The position numbers and the translations under genes were made by a program. 64,000 nucleotides of DNA, from sequence record PP596839.1, one strand, 5' to 3'. Positions 3,642 through 63,771 of the stretch are shown here, one piece after another. Each line of letters opens with the position of its first letter. The stretch's first letter is position 1. The stretch is from Pseudomonas phage WP1. The notes below the pieces were generated by a model. That model was given only the letters and a program-made list of their open reading frames with translations, was not told where the DNA came from and made no database searches.

Positions 3642-5365
3642 CTAAAAATCCTCGCCCAGTATCTTGGCTCGCTCTGCCCGTACTGCTCGAATTTTTGCCA
3701 TGGCAGCCTCATCGGTCATGTCCGGATCGCCCTTTCTCAGCAGGTACACCAGCGCATCATTGAATGGCGGCAGCGTCGTCTGCATGCTTCTTCGACCAGT
3801 CAGGCGCGACCTTATCCACGGCGGCAGGCACCATCCATTCAGGCCGTTCTTATTCGGAATGAATCCCAGCGCTTTCAGGTGTGGAGTTAAATGGCGAGAA
3901 ATCGGCTTCTTCCTGGCGAGAATATCGAACCACTTCAGAATGGAAACGGTGTCTGCCCTCCACCCAGGAAGTCTTGGAATTCTTGCCAGGCTTAACCTCT
4001 TCGAACTCACGACTGATCAGGACATTGATCAGGTACATGTCAGTCGTATCGTCGCGAACCATGCCATCGCGCATTCTCCATTTCCGAAATAGAGAAGTTC
4101 TGGACTTCGCGGTTTGCTTCCGACACCATATTCCAGGTAGCCGTCGACGCCATGCTCTTCGATCCACGGCGCGGCATCTCGGCCATCGCTTGCCAGGATT
4201 TGCGACCGAAGTCGGTGAAGTCCACCTTGAACGGTTCATTGCCATCGCCCGGCTTGACCCAGTCTGGTTTTCCATCCTCATCGGGCAGTTGAGCAGCGAA
4301 CATCGGGTAGAAACGTCGGTTCCCAGAGTCGTCCCGCTGGAGTCCATCGTAGCCGTTGCCGTCCATTATGGTGATCCATTGTCGCTTGATCGTCTCGCCC
4401 GGTTCAGGCTTCCTGGTCGAATGTATCAGAAGACCGCACCAGAGAACTCCTTGATGCGTTCCATGTCGCCCTTTTTGAATCCTGACATTTCCCCGACGTT
4501 CGCAGTAACCGAGTTGCCGGTGATGTTGCGCAGGAATGGCGTCTGGTCATGCCGGCTCAGGTCGAGCTGGACTGGAGCCAGGTCGCGACCGCCCGACAGT
4601 TCCTTGCATGTCAGCAAGCCGAAATAGGATTTACCCGCATCTTGCCCACCAGTCAAAGCCAGAGTAAATCGGGGCCGAAATTCCCGGATAATTGATGCGA
4701 CAGTACAGGCTCAGCCAGAAATACTTGCTCACCATCCGGTTCAGTTCGGTGTCGAATGGCTTAAAAAGATCGATCAGGCAGCGTGCCAGTTCGCTCTTCG
4801 CCGTCCCACTCCGGAATCTTCTTCTCAAACGTCTCGATCAGCGAGTTGCGGCGATATCGACGCGCCCAAACGCAGCAAGTCTCAGTCGTCTTCTTGATCG
4901 AGGGATCGTCCAGGGCCGCAGCCGCGAGGGCGCCCATCAGGTCAGTCGGATCGAGGGTCTTGTTGTTGAACGCCACGCCGCGATGGTCCACCAGCCGGCC
5001 GCGAAACTCATCGAAGTGCGGATGCGGGACGGTTCCATCACCCTTGCAGAACAGGTGTCGTACACCGCTAGATAGTTGCTGTCGGAAGTCGAGCTGTATT
5101 TCGTGATGAAGTCGTCGAACGGCCCTTTCACCACCCGGCTGACCGGAAGATCGAACGCCTGGTCGAGCATCAGCAATCGCGCTCGCTTTCTCAGGCCTGG
5201 TTCCGCATGCGCCTCGGCGTATCTTGCCGCCTTTTGCGCGCGATGCGTTTCGTTCCTCGCAATCGCATCATCGGCCGCCTTGCTCGCGGCGGTCATCAAA
5301 GGGTCCATTCCAGCATCTTCTATCTGCGTGAGATCAAGCTCATCTGGACCCTGATTCGCCATCAT
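3642..5365 (-). CDS. P4-alpha/D5-like primase C-terminal region plus SF3 helicase (Walker A GGQDAGKS), reading frame broken at least 5 times
   Basis: chain of minus-strand ORF fragments (142, 76, 65, 76, 108, 122 aa) that read as one protein when frames are switched; Walker A motif; C-terminal domain typical of phage/plasmid primase family. Confidence 0.5.
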
Positions 5366-13378: not shown

Positions 13379-13390
13379 TTTACACAAAGT

Positions 13391-13442
13391 GCTTTACTTC
13401 TTAGCCAGGTGAGAGTAGTATTCCCTCATCGAAACGCGAAAC
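13391..13442 (+). promoter_or_regulatory. promoter TGCTTTACTTC-17-TAGTAT plus conserved leader CATCGAAACGCGAAAC (copy A)
   Basis: -35 TTTACT 13393-13398, -10 TAGTAT 13416-13421, leader 13427-13442, ATG at 13468. Confidence 0.5.
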
Positions 13443-13467
13443 CCTTCAACCAAAAGGAATCGACAAA

Positions 13468-13698
13468 ATGGCCCGCGAAGTAACCTTCTCCACCGACAAA
13501 AACACCACCAAGACCTACGCCACCAAGGCCAATCTCGAACGCGCCATCGCCAAGGCCGAATGGCTCGGTGAAAGTGCACGCTACTTCATCCACCTGACCG
13601 AGGATGGCCGCCTGACGCCCGTGTTCCTTCTTAACAGTCTTCCTGCGGGAACTGGCGCGGTGTGGTGCGCCCAGCACGGCTGGAATGTGATAGGTTAA
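13468..13698 (+). CDS. hypothetical protein (76 aa)
   Basis: AAAAGGAA RBS, clean ORF, TAATG overlap with next gene. Confidence 0.55.
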   Translation: MAREVTFSTDKNTTKTYATKANLERAIAKAEWLGESARYFIHLTEDGRLTPVFLLNSLPAGTGAVWCAQHGWNVIG

Positions 13699-24175: not shown

Positions 24176-24207
24176 GAGAAAGGCGCTGTAATGGCGCCTT
24201 TCTTTTG
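24176..24207 (+). terminator. rho-independent terminator (GAGAAAGGCGC…GCGCCTTTCTTTT)
   Basis: 11-bp stem, 7-nt loop, T-run. Confidence 0.55.
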
Positions 24208-24219
24208 AGGAATCGAAAC

Positions 24220-24824
24220 ATGGACTGGAAGGACATGGTAGTAAGATCGGCGCGGCTGCCCCGGCCCTGGGGTCGCTCCTGGGTGGGCCTGCAGGCGCCG
24301 CCGTTGGCGCTATCGTCGCGACGGCGCTAGGGTCGAAGGCCGACCCAGCCTCGGTCGCGAGCGCTCTAGACGCGAATCCGGAGGCTCTAGCGCGCCTCGC
24401 AGGACTCCAGGGCGCCGAGCGCGTTCGCCTCCAGGAGCTGGCCATCCAGGCCGAACAGAACCGTCTTCAGCCTGAGCAGAACCAGCTCCAAGCCGAACTC
24501 AGCCAGTTCGCCGCCGAGGCGGCAGACAGGGATTCGGCGAGAAGGCTTGCCGCGCAACAAAATGACTTCGTTCGCCCGGCGATAACTTTTGCTCTTCTGA
24601 CCGGTTCCATTCTCATCATCATCGCGATTTTCACATTCGGCCGCGAGGCGCTGATGGACCCGACTTCTTCCGTCGCCATCGGCACCATCATCGGCTATTG
24701 GTTTGCTGAACTGAAGTCTGTTATGGCCTTTTACTTCGGCACCACTAAGGACGGATCGCGCCAGAGCACGGCGTCCATCATCAGCGCAGTCAAATCCCAA
24801 ATACAGAAGGAATCGAAAGAATGA
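24220..24824 (+). CDS. glycine-zipper membrane protein with two C-terminal TM helices; one frame break near 24237
   Basis: GSKIGAAAPALGSLLGGPAGAAVGAIVATALGS then coiled region then ITFALLTGSILIIIAIF / AIGTIIGYWFAEL. Confidence 0.5.
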
Positions 24825-49019: not shown

Positions 49020-49440
49020 TACCAGGGCGATGCGGTTGCCGCGCATCTTGTCCTGGACGACTTCATGGCTGTTCCATTCCAGGTGCCGGGTTGCTCAGTG
49101 TAGTGGCAGCGATAGCCTAGGGACAGGTCTTCCTTGCCCCTTTCCAGCCGATGCTGGACTGTCGCGGGAATAGATACGGATATCGCCGCGAGCCCATTGG
49201 AGCTTCGTAGTAGGCGTTGGCTGTGATGATGCCTTCCACACCTTTGTCTTCGGGAGCCATGCCGTCGTCATCGCCGTCGAATCCCGACAGCATTTCGTGC
49301 TCGTCGATCAGCGGGAGATTCTTCAGGGATTCGATATACTCAGGATCATGAACAGCAGGCTCCGGACGATACACGTTGACAGTCCGCATTGGATCGCCCG
49401 GAAGACCGAGTTGACCGGCAGGTAGATTGGAAAATGCCAT
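49020..49440 (-). CDS. hypothetical head protein, first gene after AT-rich regulatory region
   Basis: 107-aa [54 protein letters not shown]… with frame change near 3' end. Confidence 0.4.
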
Positions 49441-55577: not shown

Positions 55578-55679
55578 TCGTCAGGAACCCGACGAACGGT
55601 AGTGCGAAAGTGCTACCGCGTTTCCATTTATGGAGTATAGTCAGCCCATTGAAACGAACTTTCCAGCAGGAGAATCGAT

Positions 55680-56347
55680 ATGAACGCAGTAGCCACCTTC
55701 AGCGGTTTCGACGATCTGGAATCCGAAATTGGATCCATCGAAATCTCGTCCGAAAAGCCCGCCACCTGGAAGATGCGTCCATGGGTGCCAGTAGAATCCA
55801 TTCAGAGCGGTCAGGATGTACCGCGAAAAATGCATTAAGTGCGCAGGGACTGGAATATATCGCGGACCTTCCTCCTATGGGTACCAGTGCTTTGCCTGCG
55901 GCGGCGTCGGCTACAAAGAGTACAGGGCCAGCCCCGAAGCATGTGCCAGGAGCCGGTCGAAGGCGGCTGAGAAGCGCCAGGAGGAACGCATGTCGGCCTT
56001 TGAGGCAGAACAGGCCAGGATCGCCAGGTTCGAGCAGGATCACCCGGACATCATTGAATGGTGGAGCGACAGCAGTTTCAGTTTCGCCTGCAGCCTTTGC
56101 GATTCGCTGTATCAGTGGGGTTGCCTGTCCGATAACCAGGTTGCCGCCGCGAAACGCGCCATTGAGAGTCTGGCTCAGTATCGCGAAGAGCAGGAAGGTG
56201 AAAGTCGAGGCTCTTCCGACCCTGGACATTTCCGGCATCGAAGAGGCTTTCGATAAGGCCAGAAATTCCGGCATCAGTAGCCTGAAGCTGCGCCTGGCCG
56301 GCGAAGGCGAAGACCCGTTGCTTGTGGTGATCAGTAAGCTAGCGTAA
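55680..56347 (+). CDS. DnaJ-type CxxCxGxG zinc-finger protein (about 222 aa), two frame breaks
   Basis: GGAG RBS; CIKCAGTG and CFACGGVG repeats. Confidence 0.45.
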
Positions 56348-57765: not shown

Positions 57766-57818
57766 TGCTTTACTTCCACTCTGGATGAAGGCAGGATAGC
57801 TCCATCGAAACGCGAAAC
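57766..57818 (+). promoter_or_regulatory. promoter TGCTTTACTTC… plus conserved leader CATCGAAACGCGAAAC (copy B; -10 poorly conserved)
   Basis: -35 TTTACT 57769-57774; leader 57803-57818. Confidence 0.4.
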
Positions 57819-57840
57819 CTTCAAGCAAAAGGAACCGACC

Positions 57841-58527
57841 ATTACCGACCAGGACGAATTCACTCCTGAAGCCATTGAGAAGGCGAAAGATCGCATTCGC
57901 AAGCTGACCGCAGTGGCGGCCGACTCGTCCAGTCCGCATGAAGCGGCCATCGCGGCCGAGCGGGTGAAGAAGTTAAAGGACAGGTATGATCTTCATGACT
58001 TCGAAGCGACCGGCGAGATTCGCGAAGAATTCGACGAGCAGGTTGCTACTCGTTACTATTCCGCAGTCCCGAACTGGATGAAGTTCTTCTCGGTGGCCGT
58101 GGCGACGTACAGTGATTGCATCATGGATTTCGTCGGCGGCATCAGCAATTATCGAGCATTGGCTAAGGCGTCCAGGAGCGCTCGCGACGGCAGCACCACC
58201 AAGCGCTGGGGTTATGCCGTTTGATTTAAAGGCTACAGGTCTGACGTTGAGCTGGCGGTAAACATGTTCAGCTCCCTGGTCGATGCAGTAGACCGTCTGT
58301 GCCGGGAATATCAGGAGGCTCAAGGTTTCGAGCGGTTCAGCGTCAAGGTCGCCGCGCAGTTTAAGCTCGCTGCGACCCAGGAAATCAGCGATCGCCTCCA
58401 GTCCATTACCCGGAAACGTATGGAGCTGGTTTCTTCGGCCGGAACGTCTCTGGTGGTGGTTAAGGAAGCTGCGGTCCACGGCATTTCGGCGATCCGGGTT
58501 ACAAGAAGTCGAATGTTACCAAGCTGA
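57841..58527 (+). CDS. DUF2786-like protein (…SSPHEAAIAAERVKKLKDRYDL…), uncertain start (ATT at 57841), frame break near 58224
   Basis: ORFs 57700-58224 and 58264-58527 in adjacent frames; N-terminal helix motif typical of DUF2786 family. Confidence 0.4.
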
Positions 58528-58643
58528 TTGCGTCTGGACGACAGTGACGGTCGGCGCGCCTACACTGCCGGGACCAGTGCTGGTCGCAGCATGGAAATCG
58601 TTCGGTCGGTGGAGGATTAACCATTGGTCTTCCTAGCGACAAG

Positions 58644-61507: not shown

Positions 61508-61545
61508 AACCGTTCGTCGGTGAACATAATTTTACTGTTAATACA

Positions 61546-61596
61546 CTTTACTTCCATTCTGAATAGCGTCATAATCTCTTCATCGAAACGCGAAAC
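61546..61596 (+). promoter_or_regulatory. promoter CACTTTACTTC-17-CATAAT plus conserved leader CATCGAAACGCGAAAC (copy C)
   Basis: -35 61547-61552, -10 61570-61575, leader 61581-61596, ATG 61621. Confidence 0.5.
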
Positions 61597-61620
61597 ACTC
61601 CAAAACAGAGGAACGCAGAA

Positions 61621-61767
61621 ATGACCAAATCCCAGATCAACGATCAAATCCGCTCCGCCAAGATCGCCATCAGCGAGGCAGAAATGGAAGGCCTGCGCGG
61701 CCAGGCCATGATCGCCCTGAAAGCTAAGCTGACCACCCTCAAAGCTCAGTACAAACTCGCCAAATAA
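61621..61767 (+). CDS. small helical protein (48 aa)
   Basis: GAGGAA RBS; MTKSQINDQIRSAKIAISEAEMEGLRGQAMIALKAKLTTLKAQYKLAK. Confidence 0.4.
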   Translation: MTKSQINDQIRSAKIAISEAEMEGLRGQAMIALKAKLTTLKAQYKLAK

Positions 61768-61777
61768 GGGGCCAGAA

Positions 61778-62080
61778 ATGACTAAGCAGATCAATATCGG
61801 CGTCAGCAACTTCGACGAAGTTTTCATCCAGCACATAATCGGCGGCGGTTTCCTCTTCGATGTCGACGACCATGAAGTCACAGACCGCATCCTCCTGAAC
61901 GTGGATGGCGAACCGGCTATCCAGTTCGAACTGAATGCCGAACTGTGGAACGAAGAGACTCTGGGCATTCCGATGGACATCGACAGTGACGAGTTCGCCG
62001 ATGAGCTTCAAGACTGGGTCGAGTCTAAGGTTAATTTCGCCTTCGAAGAGTGGCTGAGCGCGGACGAAGGCGAAGAGTAA
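61778..62080 (+). CDS. highly acidic 100-aa protein (DNA-mimic / anti-restriction-like composition)
   Basis: clean ORF; about 30 percent D/E, ends ADEGEE. Confidence 0.5.
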   Translation: MTKQINIGVSNFDEVFIQHIIGGGFLFDVDDHEVTDRILLNVDGEPAIQFELNAELWNEETLGIPMDIDSDEFADELQDWVESKVNFAFEEWLSADEGEE

Positions 62081-63046: not shown

Positions 63047-63251
63047 TCGTGCAGGAATATTGCCTGTACCATATCCCTCGGCCCGGAACGCTCCAGTTCG
63101 AATTCGAACGGACTGCCAGTTCCAAACTCGGCATCAATGACGGCTGCCTGTCCTGTCATCCGATGGCGAGCGCTACCTGAACGATCACGCTGACTGGCCC
63201 TGGCGACAGTTCCTGGCTTCCAGAAATTTCAGATAATTCTCTCAAAATTGC

Positions 63252-63301
63252 TTTACTCGATGAGGTGGCTGAGGTATAGTCACCTCATCGAAACGCGAAA
63301 C
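63252..63301 (+). promoter_or_regulatory. promoter TGCTTTACTCG-17-TATAGT plus conserved leader (copy D) embedded in 10-bp inverted repeat CGATGAGGTG / CACCTCATCG
   Basis: -35 63252-63257, -10 63275-63280, leader 63286-63301, ATG 63323. Confidence 0.5.
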
Positions 63302-63322
63302 GCTCAAAAAGAGGATTGCGAA

Positions 63323-63771
63323 ATGACCAGCTCCAAATGGAACATCGGCAGAAACGACACCATTGCAGTCGAGGCCGTAAACAGCCGCGAAGATTTCCGC
63401 TGGAATGGCAAGATTCGCGTTATTCACTACAGCGCCGGCCAAATCGTCAACATCATCGAGTTCTATCACCACGACCTGGACTGGGCGATCAAGAATTTCG
63501 GCATCAAGCTGAAGGCTATCTCCAAAGGCCTGGAAATACTCCACACCTGCTACTTCGGGAAGGTATGTCAAGTGATCGTCCAACTCGATTCCCAAGAAGA
63601 GAAAATCATCAGCCTGAGAACTCTGTCCAAGTATCGTCGCGCCGGTGGCAAGTTCGCGCCGATGGACGGGACTCAGACCGGTCCTGGGGTCCAGTCGACA
63701 ACGCGCTCTGGGCGAAGTTCGAAGCCGAAGCCAGGGCAGAATACATCCGCAAACAGGAGCGTAAAGCATGA
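63323..63771 (+). CDS. hypothetical protein (about 150 aa), one frame break near 63690
   Basis: MTSSKWNIGRNDTIAVEAVNSREDFRWNGKIRVIHYSAGQIV… then …NALWAKFEAEARAEYIRKQERKA*. Confidence 0.5.

What the first reader, a model, noticed from the sequence alone, without database searches (positions are those of the whole stretch)
13427..13442. Invariant 16-nt leader CATCGAAACGCGAAAC present four times, always 25-30 nt upstream of a start codon
Exact copies lie at 13427-13442, 57803-57818, 61581-61596 and 63286-63301. All are on the plus strand, each directly downstream of a TGCTTTACTTC-type promoter and upstream of a small-gene ATG (13468, about 57841, 61621, 63323). A 16-mer conserved perfectly while the flanks diverge points to a sequence-specific element in the 5' UTR. 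It could be a site for a phage RNA-binding regulator, an antitermination or processing signal, a translational operator, or part of a riboregulator. I do not recognise it as a known element.
Basis: seen in the sequence. Interest (0 to 1): 0.75.

Follow-up and report, generated by a model that had tools for sequence, protein, structure and literature searches.

The report
Shared start sequence of phage early transcripts
The repeated 16-mer is the transcription start point plus the first 15 transcribed bases of four host-polymerase early promoters in a PB1-like Pseudomonas phage; it is real and strongly conserved, close versions start transcripts in unrelated phages, and its mechanism is still unproven.

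Summary
CATCGAAACGCGAAAC occurs exactly four times, all on the + strand, and there are no near-copies. The window is a Pbunavirus (PB1-like P. aeruginosa phage). In the relative 14-1, published ONT-cappable-seq start sites fall on the A at motif position 2 in all four homologous copies. The 16-mer is therefore position -1 to +15 of sigma70-type early promoters (TTTACT-17-TAnnnT-6-A), not an internal UTR site.

A fifth, degenerate copy (CATTGAAACGAAC) starts the gp12-homologue transcript. The leaders are U-free to about +17 and not significantly structured.

The exact 15-mer also sits at +1, in the same register to a -10 box, in several unrelated phages. These include Aeromonas T4-like phiAS5, a Pseudomonas genomic island and a Marinomonas gene family. 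Looser forms start transcripts in GAP32-like jumbo phages and at what looks like lambdoid PL. T7 A1 and A3 start similarly.

Because the register is fixed to the promoter and not to the start codon, I favour an initial-transcribed-sequence element acting on host RNA polymerase during start-site choice and promoter escape. This is inferred, not shown. A sequence-specific binding factor remains a serious rival. Cross-phage enrichment is moderate, and one of my tests was negative.

The parts
13390..13421 (+). Promoter A. It has the -35 block TGCTTTACTTC (hexamer TTTACT, 13393-13398), a 17-nt spacer and the -10 box TAGTAT (13416-13421).
   Evidence: Coordinates. The homologous 14-1 promoter P028 is classed sigma70 with TSS 49234.
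13427..13442 (+). Motif copy A. C at 13427 is -1 and the inferred TSS is A at 13428. ATCGAAACGCGAAAC is +1..+15.
   Evidence: The TSS is inferred from 14-1 P028.
13443..13698 (+). Rest of leader A (SD AAGGAA at 13454-13459) and the first gene, ATG 13468 to 13698 (76 aa, gp65 homologue). It is the first gene of the operon that runs into thyX.
   Evidence: 14-1 TU029 covers gp65-gp59.
57766..57797 (+). Promoter B. It has the -35 block TGCTTTACTTC, hexamer TTTACT (57769-57774) and -10 box CAGGAT (57792-57797). It lies inside the 3' end of the upstream ORF, whose stop codon TAG is at 57797-57799.
   Evidence: 14-1 P006 has TSS 4479.
57803..57818 (+). Motif copy B, with inferred TSS at 57804.
   Evidence: 14-1 P006 carries the variant CATTGAAACGCGAAAC.
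57819..58620 (+). Leader B (SD AGGA at 57830-57833) and the gp08 homologue, which has a DUF2786 domain. Its start codon is ATT at 57841 where relatives have ATG.
   Evidence: tblastn places gp08 residues 1-260 at 57841-58620.
61544..61575 (+). Promoter C. It has the block CACTTTACTTC, hexamer TTTACT (61547-61552) and -10 box CATAAT (61570-61575).
   Evidence: 14-1 P001 has TSS 707 and was active in E. coli and P. aeruginosa reporters when cloned only up to +1.
61581..61596 (+). Motif copy C, with inferred TSS at 61582.
61597..62080 (+). Leader C and the gp02 and gp01 homologues (61621-61767 and 61778-62080).
   Evidence: 14-1 TU001 is.
63249..63280 (+). Promoter D. It has the block TGCTTTACTCG, hexamer TTTACT (63252-63257) and -10 box TATAGT (63275-63280).
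   Evidence: 14-1 P049 has TSS 65240.
63286..63301 (+). Motif copy D, with inferred TSS at 63287.
63302..63771 (+). Leader D and its first gene (ATG at 63323). This is the first gene of the gp88-gp84-type operon.
55597..55659 (+). Fifth, degenerate copy. A terminator-like stem-loop (55597-55618) is followed by -10 TATAGT (55636-55641), inferred TSS at 55648 and ATTGAAACGAAC (55648-59). The ATG at 55680 opens the gp12-homologue region.
   Evidence: 14-1 P009 (TSS 6637) starts ATCGAAACGAAC and drives gp12.

Best explanation
SHOWN. The 16-mer is the start-site region (-1 to +15) of four sigma70-type early promoters of a PB1-like phage, five counting a degenerate copy. Fifteen of its 16 bases are transcribed and form the very 5' end of the early mRNAs.

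INFERRED. It works mainly as an initial-transcribed-sequence (ITS) element read by the host RNA polymerase. A pyrimidine-pyrimidine/A junction fixes one start site. A purine-rich, U-free stretch follows, with GA at +4/+5, no T-G or T-A step near +5/+6 and no -10-like hexamer. This would favour fast promoter escape without initiation pausing at strong phage promoters.

A by-product would be an unstructured, A-rich, U-poor 5' end ahead of a weak hairpin that carries the Shine-Dalgarno sequence.

The first 8 nt (AUYGAAAC) are the widely shared core. The second GAAAC, at +11..+15, is a lineage-level extension.
For: 1) All four 14-1 homologues have their mapped TSS on the A of the motif.

2) The register to the -10 box is constant in every lineage found (5 nt, then C or T, then A). 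The distance to the first ORF ranges from 16 to more than 500 nt.

3) The exact 15-mer sits at +1 of good promoters in unrelated contexts:
- uncultured phages L014, L089 and L105;
- Aeromonas phage phiAS5 (L018);
- Pseudomonas sp. App30 (L045);
- a Marinomonas paralogous gene family, where it is the longest invariant block of the regulatory region.

4) ATCGAAAC-NN-GAAAC hits fall in a promoter + SD + ORF context in 17% of cases against 0.9% for control positions, p=2e-12. Given AT..AAAC at +1..+8, positions +3/+4 are YG in 42% of families against 5% expected, p=7e-12.

5) In ATCGAAAC promoters the untranscribed -2 position is a pyrimidine in 73% against 35% of controls, p=1e-9. The element therefore spans the start site, which points to a DNA/polymerase-level role.

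6) The same octamer starts transcripts that appear to be lambdoid PL-nutL transcripts, judging by boxA and by the synteny of the downstream segment. There, no start codon is nearby.

7) T7 A1 (C|ATCGAGAGGG..., U-free to +20) and A3 (C|ATGAAACGACAG) start alike.

8) Literature: ITS positions +2..+10 change escape kinetics by orders of magnitude. TG or TA near +5/+6 slows escape, GG or GA speeds it, and purine content tracks productive yield (PMC5961368).

9) The leaders are not significantly structured (z from -0.1 to +1.4) and match no Rfam family.
Against: - No experiment on the motif exists. 14-1 P001 is already a strong promoter when cloned only to +1, so the motif is not needed for promoter activity as such.
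- A composition-type optimum does not easily explain why all 15 bases are identical in four paralogous copies and across the genus. That pattern fits a sequence-specific partner better.
- Cross-phage enrichment is moderate. In an unbiased sample of consensus promoters, ATCG starts were 1 of 141. Given ATCG, AAAC at +5..+8 was 2 of 77 families, which is not significant. My rough estimate of over-representation is 2-5 fold.
- The collection scans were cut at 120 rows, so counts are samples and not totals.
- +2 = T and C-G steps at +3/+4, +8/+9 and +10/+11 are not classic fast-escape features in every promoter context.
Confidence: 0.45

Rival explanations
1. The motif is a 5'-terminal RNA tag. 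The first 15 nt of the early mRNAs would be bound by a sequence-specific RNA-binding factor, from host or phage. That factor would coordinately control stability or translation of the early operons, much as the cold box at the 5' end of csp mRNAs does. The two GAAAC units 7 nt apart would be read by tandem domains or by an oligomer.
For: - All 15 nt are identical in four copies and across Pbunavirus genomes while the flanks drift.
- The motif is a direct repeat, CGAAAC-G-CGAAAC, and L152 carries four GAAAC units at a 7-nt period.
- The sequence is strand-asymmetric, purine-rich and unstructured.
- In Marinomonas the second repeat pairs with a downstream GTTTCGC at variable distance, which looks like an RNA hairpin and not an operator.
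Against: - No shared protein was found between the window and the other motif-bearing loci, although those loci are only partial.
- The representative genome scan found no promoter-context copy in P. aeruginosa itself.
- A pyrimidine bias at the untranscribed -2/-1 positions accompanies the motif.
- The second half of the motif degenerates in some Pbunavirus promoter copies.
Confidence: 0.22
2. The motif is a DNA operator at +1..+15 for a phage-encoded repressor that shuts off the early promoters at the switch to middle transcription.
For: - It is found only at early-type sigma70 promoters, five of the 26 sigma70-type TSSs in 14-1.
- Its position overlaps the start site, which is a classic repressor position.
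- 14-1 has a second, non-sigma70 promoter class, and gp12 binds the RNAP alpha subunit.
Against: - It is a direct repeat with a 7-bp period, which does not fit helical phasing or a palindromic operator.
- The same 15-mer occurs in phages with no detectable shared proteins in the loci held and in what looks like lambdoid PL, where the operator-like inverted repeats lie over the -35/-10 region instead.
- The three small HTH proteins encoded downstream in L014, L018 and L089 belong to different families.
Confidence: 0.08
3. The motif is mainly a recombination linker. Promoter-plus-start cassettes would be kept alike by gene conversion and would serve as junctions for module shuffling, like the PeSL cassettes of T4-type phages.
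For: - The region between copies C and D is hyperplastic across Pbunaviruses.
- In Wadjak_2 and an IMG/VR contig, novel ORFs begin right after the 15-mer, and the promoter with its start sequence is duplicated on both sides of the insert.
- Other phages also carry their own repeated promoter-leader cassettes.
- The T4/PST PeSL promoter consensus TTTACW-N17-TAYWAT resembles the promoters here.
Against: - Within this genome the identical stretches are only 11 and 16 nt long and are separated by a spacer that is 30% identical. That is poor substrate for conversion.
- No stem-loop precedes the four full copies.
- Conversion cannot explain identity with unrelated phages and with Marinomonas.
Confidence: 0.1
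4. The motif mimics a crRNA 5' handle. Transcripts beginning AUUGAAAC or AUCGAAAC would imitate the 8-nt 5' tag of crRNAs and titrate or mis-load Cas proteins. The P. aeruginosa type I-C repeat ends ...GGATTGAAAC.
For: - The shared core is exactly 8 nt and starts exactly at the RNA 5' end.
- The U variant equals the published tag AUUGAAAC (PMC3479195) and the end of the P. aeruginosa I-C repeat (PMC7761518).
- The U variant occurs in 14-1 P006, Banzai and Wadjak_2, and ATTGAAAC is the commonest YG form in the scan.
- One duplicated promoter copy drives a gene annotated as Acr-like in phage Banzai.
Against: - The dominant Pbunavirus form has C, not U, at position 3.
- The I-C handle is 11 nt by my recollection, which I did not check with a tool.
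- Primary transcripts carry a 5' triphosphate and crRNAs do not.
- No repeat stem-loop is present.
- The motif also heads Marinomonas chromosomal genes and what looks like lambdoid PL.
Confidence: 0.04

Closest known systems
Initial transcribed sequences of the T7 early promoters A1 and A3 (E. coli RNAP)
   Same: These are host-sigma70 early phage promoters with C at -1 and A at +1. A1 reads C|ATCGAGAGGGACACGGCGAAT, sharing CATCGA and being U-free from +3 to +20. A3 reads C|ATGAAACGACAG, sharing AT-GAAACGA.
   Different: In T7 these are single promoters, not an invariant 15-mer repeated four times. As far as I know, no element function has been assigned to the T7 sequences.
Downstream sequence region / ITS effect on promoter strength (T5 PN25, Kammerer et al. 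1986; Hsu; Heyduk & Heyduk 2018, PMC5961368)
   Same: The first 10-20 transcribed bases of strong phage promoters set promoter clearance. Purine richness and GA or GG near +6 favour escape.
   Different: Those studies found no fixed consensus. Here one exact sequence is reused within a genome and recurs across lineages. The effect of this particular sequence has not been measured.
PeSL promoter-terminator cassettes of T4-type phages (PMC2839356, PMC4122927)
   Same: Both are repeated early-promoter cassettes at the borders of variable gene modules. The promoter type is similar (TTTACW-N17-TAYWAT).
   Different: PeSLs are defined by a stem-loop plus a promoter, and no transcribed motif is described for them. 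The four full copies here lack the stem-loop.
Cold box at the 5' end of the cspA-family 5' UTRs (from my own knowledge, not a tool result)
   Same: It is a short sequence conserved at the extreme 5' end of several co-regulated mRNAs.
   Different: The sequence, host and genes differ. No binding factor is known here.
crRNA 8-nt 5' tag AUUGAAAC (PMC3479195); P. aeruginosa I-C repeat end (PMC7761518)
   Same: It has the same length and the same 5'-terminal position. It is identical to the U variant and matches the main form at 7 of 8 positions.
   Different: There is no CRISPR repeat, no stem-loop and no processing, and the RNA carries a 5' triphosphate. The resemblance may be coincidental.

Membership tests
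Sigma70-type (host RNAP) phage early promoter with its initial transcribed sequence | -35 and -10 hexamers 17±1 bp apart | tested here: met
   TTTACT-17-TAGTAT, CAGGAT, CATAAT or TATAGT. The generic consensus scan reports only two of the four at 9/12.
Sigma70-type (host RNAP) phage early promoter with its initial transcribed sequence | Transcription starts about 7 nt after the -10 box | tested here: met
   Mapped in relative 14-1, not in this genome: TSSs 707, 4479, 49234 and 65240 fall on the A of the motif.
Sigma70-type (host RNAP) phage early promoter with its initial transcribed sequence | Active with host RNAP alone | not testable with these tools
   Literature only: 14-1 P001 drives msfGFP in uninfected E. 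coli and P. aeruginosa.
Sigma70-type (host RNAP) phage early promoter with its initial transcribed sequence | The ITS changes abortive/productive yield or escape rate | not testable with these tools
   The sequence features agree with published fast-escape rules. No measurement exists for this sequence.
Known cis-regulatory RNA (riboswitch, leader, sRNA; Rfam) | Match to a curated covariance model | tested here: not met
   No hit at gathering score in the whole window. Only chance-level hits appear at E up to 10.
Known cis-regulatory RNA (riboswitch, leader, sRNA; Rfam) | Stable conserved secondary structure | tested here: not met
   MFE is -3.6 to -9.6 kcal/mol and z is -0.1 to +1.4 against shuffles. 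Only a weak SD hairpin covaries (CCUU/AAGG against CUC/GAG).
PeSL mobile regulatory cassette | Stem-loop terminator immediately upstream of the early promoter | tested here: not met
   None is present at the four full copies. One is present only at the degenerate fifth copy, 55597-55618.
PeSL mobile regulatory cassette | Repeated cassette at the borders of variable ORF modules | tested here: met
   The region is hyperplastic, and an insertion in Wadjak_2 is flanked by duplicated promoter-plus-motif copies.
N-utilisation / Nus antitermination site (boxA) | boxA-like GCTCTTTAACA in the leader | tested here: not met
   It is absent from the 36-40 nt leaders in the window. It is present about 50-58 nt downstream of the motif in L045 and in the lambdoid PL-like loci.
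RNA anti-CRISPR / crRNA mimic | Repeat-like sequence including the repeat stem-loop | tested here: not met
   Only the last 8 nt of the repeat are matched, 7 of 8 in this genome. No stem-loop is present.
Translational operator (RegA-type) | Site overlaps the SD or start codon | tested here: not met
   The motif ends 11-13 nt before the SD and 21-25 nt before the start codon. Elsewhere the distance is 16 to more than 500 nt.

The most novel reading that the evidence does not exclude
The 5' octamer AUYGAAAC may be a functional mimic of the crRNA 5' handle. The handle is AUUGAAAC, as at the end of the P. aeruginosa type I-C repeat. Early phage transcripts would then present a handle at their very 5' end and mis-load or titrate Cas proteins. 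That would be an RNA-level anti-CRISPR built into the start of ordinary mRNAs.

A less exotic but still new reading is that AUYGAAAC(NNGAAAC) is a previously unrecognised, sequence-specific start-proximal promoter element read by gammaproteobacterial RNA polymerase.
Probability: 0.04. Interest if true: 0.9.

Novelty: new variant of a known kind. Interest (0 to 1): 0.5.

Why it matters
Pbunaviruses are among the most used therapeutic P. aeruginosa phages, yet the published promoter analysis stopped at +1. If this start sequence tunes promoter clearance or mRNA fate, it is part of the early-gene switch. It would also be a portable part for strong expression in Pseudomonas.

More generally, ITS effects are usually described as having no consensus. 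An exact start sequence reused by unrelated phages, a genomic island and a bacterial gene family would give a concrete natural sequence with which to test whether polymerase, or some unknown factor, reads the first 8-15 transcribed bases specifically.

Tried and rejected
- **Mimicry of a host rRNA promoter.** L045 shows a boxA after the motif, but no rRNA or tRNA lies in that locus. The species-representative genome scan found no promoter-context copy in P. aeruginosa.
- **Pairing with ribosomal RNA.** The duplex energy of the 15-mer with E. coli 16S, 23S and 5S is no better than for shuffled 15-mers.
- **Known RNA family.** None was found.
- **Stable leader structure.** Not supported.
- **Autoregulated HTH gene.** The first genes after the motif in L014, L018 and L089 are small HTH proteins, but they belong to different families, and the Pbunavirus genes are not HTH proteins.
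- **Shared phage-encoded factor.** No protein is shared between the window and the other motif-bearing loci. This test is limited by the loci being partial.
- **Sigma54, sigmaE or ECF -35 readings of GAAAC, LacI/PsrA-type operators, hammerhead core.** I considered these by eye from the sequences. Spacing or partner elements do not fit.
- **Literature.** No paper in the library contains the 13-mer on either strand. The 14-1 transcriptome paper analysed only -50..+1 and does not mention the motif.
- **Negative control result.** Given a consensus promoter and ATCG at +1..+4, AAAC at +5..+8 is not significantly enriched: 2 of 77 families, with ATCGAAAG commoner.

Full report
**What the window is.** The window is nearly a whole genome of a PB1-like myophage of Pseudomonas aeruginosa (genus Pbunavirus). 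An 8-kb stretch is 97% identical to phage PaW12 and 80-95% identical to about 300 other Pbunavirus records. The window aligns to phage 14-1 (NC_011703) at 82-91% in reverse orientation.

**The observation.** CATCGAAACGCGAAAC occurs exactly four times, always on the + strand, and nothing else in the window comes within three mismatches. A given 16-mer is expected 3e-5 times here. Aligned on the motif, the four copies share only two blocks:
- the motif itself, at identity 1.00;
- an 11-nt -35 block, at identity 0.82.

The 15-nt promoter spacer is 0.30 identical, -6..-2 is 0.40 and +16..+36 is 0.46. Each copy has TTTACT, 17 nt, a TAnnnT-like -10 box, and then six bases ending in C before the A of the motif.

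**What it is.** Putzeys et al. (Microlife 2024, PMC10914365) mapped primary 5' ends of 14-1 by ONT-cappable-seq. 14-1 carries the motif at 693-708, 4465-4480 (CATTG variant), 49220-49235 and 65226-65241 on its minus strand. The mapped start sites P001 = 707, P006 = 4479, P028 = 49234 and P049 = 65240 are all classed sigma70. Each one is the A at motif position 2.

The 16-mer is therefore -1 to +15, and the RNAs begin pppAUCGAAACGCGAAAC. The transcription units are:
- P001: gp02-gp01;
- P006: gp08;
- P028: gp65 through gp59 (thyX operon);
- P049: gp88-gp84.

A fifth promoter, P009, drives gp12, which has been reported to bind the RNAP alpha subunit. It starts ATCGAAACGAAC in 14-1 and ATTGAAACGAAC in the window at 55648. 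The paper searched for motifs only in -50..+1 and does not mention the transcribed block. P001 cloned only up to +1 was already a strong promoter in E. coli and P. aeruginosa. The motif is therefore not required for promoter recognition.

**The leaders.** They are 36-40 nt long. After +2 the next U is at +17 or +18. Folding gives -3.6 to -9.6 kcal/mol, no better than shuffled sequence. The only recurring structure is a small hairpin whose 3' arm is the Shine-Dalgarno sequence, with covarying arms (CCUU...AAGG or CUC...GAG). No Rfam family matches.

**Conservation within the genus.** In six divergent Pbunaviruses the P001 and P049 copies are mostly exact. Variants do exist:
- ATTGAAACGCAAAAC in Banzai and Wadjak_2;
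- ATCGAAACGAACAAA in R12;
- a duplicated P049-like promoter in front of a gene annotated as Acr-like in Banzai, carrying ATCGAAACCAGAAGC, ATCGAAACCCTAAGC or ATCGAATCCCGAAGC.

The first 8 nt are thus better kept than the last 7. The region between copies C and D varies greatly in gene content. In Wadjak_2, new ORFs start right after the 15-mer, with the promoter and its start sequence duplicated on both sides.

**Outside the genus: exact copies.** Exact-match scans found the 16-mer or 15-mer directly after good sigma70-type promoters, in the same register, in the following:
- an uncultured phage (L014, TTGACA...TACAAT);
- Aeromonas T4-like phage phiAS5 (L018; identified);
- a 36%-GC metagenomic contig (L089);
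- a 55%-GC phage contig with T at -1 (L105);
- a Pseudomonas sp. App30 chromosomal island (L045), where a boxA-like GCTCTTTAACA and about 550 nt without an ORF follow;
- a family of paralogous genes for small secreted proteins in at least five Marinomonas species.

In Marinomonas the 16-mer is the longest invariant block of the whole regulatory region. All other exact hits lie in coding sequence and look like chance.

**Outside the genus: relaxed patterns.** Relaxed patterns gave many more promoter-context cases of ATCGAAAC-NN-GAAAC or ATCGAAAC alone. These include Cronobacter phage GAP32 and its relatives. They also include loci that look like lambdoid PL promoters, whose transcript carries boxA about 58 nt downstream. 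The homologous downstream segment in an annotated E. coli prophage lies between the cI-type repressor and the N gene. That prophage's own PL starts ATCAGCAGGACGC, like lambda's as I recall it. T7 A1 and A3 start C|ATCGAGAGGG... and C|ATGAAACGACAG.

**How strong is the cross-phage signal?**

Supporting results:
- Hits to ATCGAAAC-NN-GAAAC are in a promoter + SD + ORF context 19 times more often than control positions (12/72 against 0.9%, p=2e-12).
- Among consensus promoters starting AT..AAAC and not ATG, positions +3/+4 are YG in 42% of sequence families against 5% expected (p=7e-12). One phage family alternates ATTGAAAC, ATCGAAAC and ATAGAAAC.
- ATCGAAAC promoters carry a pyrimidine at the untranscribed -2 position in 73% against 35% of controls (p=1e-9).
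- T is depleted at +9..+16 (0.09-0.12 against 0.20).

Cautions:
- In an unbiased sample of consensus promoters, ATCG starts are rare (1 of 141).
- Given ATCG, AAAC at +5..+8 is not significantly enriched (2 of 77 families).
- Phage leaders are A-rich in general, which raises the chance rate of such sequences at promoters.

My rough estimate is 2-5 fold over-representation of the octamer. The recurrence of the full 15-mer in three or more independent IMG/VR lineages compares with well under one expected.

**Mechanism.** The one relation that never changes is to the -10 box and the start site. The distance to the first ORF ranges from 16 to more than 500 nt, and the downstream genes are unrelated. 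That argues against a translational operator and for a role at transcription initiation or at the RNA 5' end.

Several lines fit an initial-transcribed-sequence element that helps host RNA polymerase clear very strong phage promoters:
- the bias at untranscribed -2/-1;
- the 8-nt core, which matches the RNA length made before escape;
- GA at +4/+5;
- the absence of T-G or T-A steps around +5/+6;
- the lack of any -10-like hexamer.

These features agree with published rules (PMC5961368). This step is an inference; nothing here measures escape.

The main weakness is that a general optimum does not explain base-for-base identity of all 15 positions in four copies. A sequence-specific partner explains that better, whether it acts on the nascent 5' end or on the DNA. 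I found no candidate: no protein is shared among the motif-bearing loci I hold, there is no autoregulator family, no rRNA complementarity, and no promoter-context copy in the P. aeruginosa representative genome.

**Other readings.**
- A PeSL-like role as a module junction is supported by the Wadjak_2 arrangement. It cannot be the whole story, because the identical patches are short and the motif is shared with unrelated genomes.
- The U variant AUUGAAAC equals the 8-nt crRNA 5' tag and the end of the P. aeruginosa type I-C repeat. This is a striking resemblance, because the core is 8 nt and sits at the RNA 5' end. However, the main form differs at position 3, there is no repeat hairpin, and the motif also heads Marinomonas chromosomal genes. 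I rate it unlikely.

**Verdict.** The finding is real and correctly located. It is best described as the common start-site and initial transcribed sequence of the phage's sigma70 early promoters. It belongs to a known kind of thing, the ITS or downstream region of strong phage promoters as in T7 A1/A3 and T5 N25. It is an unusually exact, reused and apparently undescribed version of that kind (no literature match). Interest is moderate: the anatomy is settled, the cross-phage recurrence is suggestive but only moderately enriched, and the mechanism needs a simple in vitro test.

Noticed in passing
window 57841-57843: The gp08 homologue (DUF2786 domain) appears to start with ATT. 14-1 and several metagenomic Pbunavirus contigs have ATG at the same position, and the protein alignment begins exactly there.
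   Followed up: partly
window 55597-55840: A degenerate fifth motif copy (CATTGAAACGAAC) follows a terminator-like stem-loop. The ORF opened by ATG 55680 stops after 52 codons, and tblastn places the rest of the gp12 homologue (56% identical) in other frames. This could be a frameshift, a sequence error or a diverged gene.
   Followed up: partly
window 13443-13462, 57819-57835, 61597-61612, 63302-63314: In each leader the Shine-Dalgarno sequence is the 3' arm of a small hairpin, and the 5' arm covaries with it (CCUU/AAGG against CUC/GAG). The loop is CA-rich. The predicted stability is weak.
   Followed up: partly
L226 (Wadjak_2) 434 and 1025; L221, L222 and L224 near 1880-2190: Other Pbunaviruses carry extra promoter-plus-motif copies flanking inserted ORFs. 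One copy has a degenerate second half and lies upstream of a gene annotated as structurally related to AcrF2 and AcrIF13 in phage Banzai.
   Followed up: partly
L043, L047, L051, L052, L053, L064, L068 (Marinomonas spp.; L052 is labelled Rhodanobacter): A paralogous family of 86-93 aa signal-peptide proteins has the exact 16-mer as the longest invariant block of its upstream region. The second GCGAAAC pairs with a downstream GTTTCGC at variable distance.
   Followed up: partly
L045 2040-2660 (Pseudomonas sp. App30 chromosome): A terminator is followed by a TTGACA promoter, the motif extended to CATCGAAACGCGAAACGCGATTC (an extension shared with phiAS5), a boxA-like GCTCTTTAACA at about +50, and then about 550 nt with no convincing ORF. 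This could be a long leader or an ncRNA of a mobile element.
   Followed up: no
L206, L203, L167, L180 (IMG/VR contigs): Other phages carry their own repeated promoter-plus-start cassettes. Examples are TATAAT-gaagct-CAACATCAACCAAACGGATTAAA (four or five copies) and TATACT-tatttc-ATTGGAAGATAAAGCCACTAGCCC. Reuse of a start sequence within a genome is therefore not unique to Pbunavirus.
   Followed up: no
L152 (IMG/VR contig): One leader reads ATCGAAACAAGAAACAGGAAACAAGAAACAGGAA, which is four GAAAC units at a 7-nt period.
   Followed up: no
window 24195-24225: A terminator-like hairpin is followed by AGGA-ATCGAAAC-ATG. Here the octamer sits between the SD and the start codon with no promoter in front, so it is probably coincidence.
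   Followed up: no
hit H76: A 91-nt stretch of the gp02-homologue coding region (about window 61631-61721) matches Bordetella phage FP1 at 81% identity.
   Followed up: no
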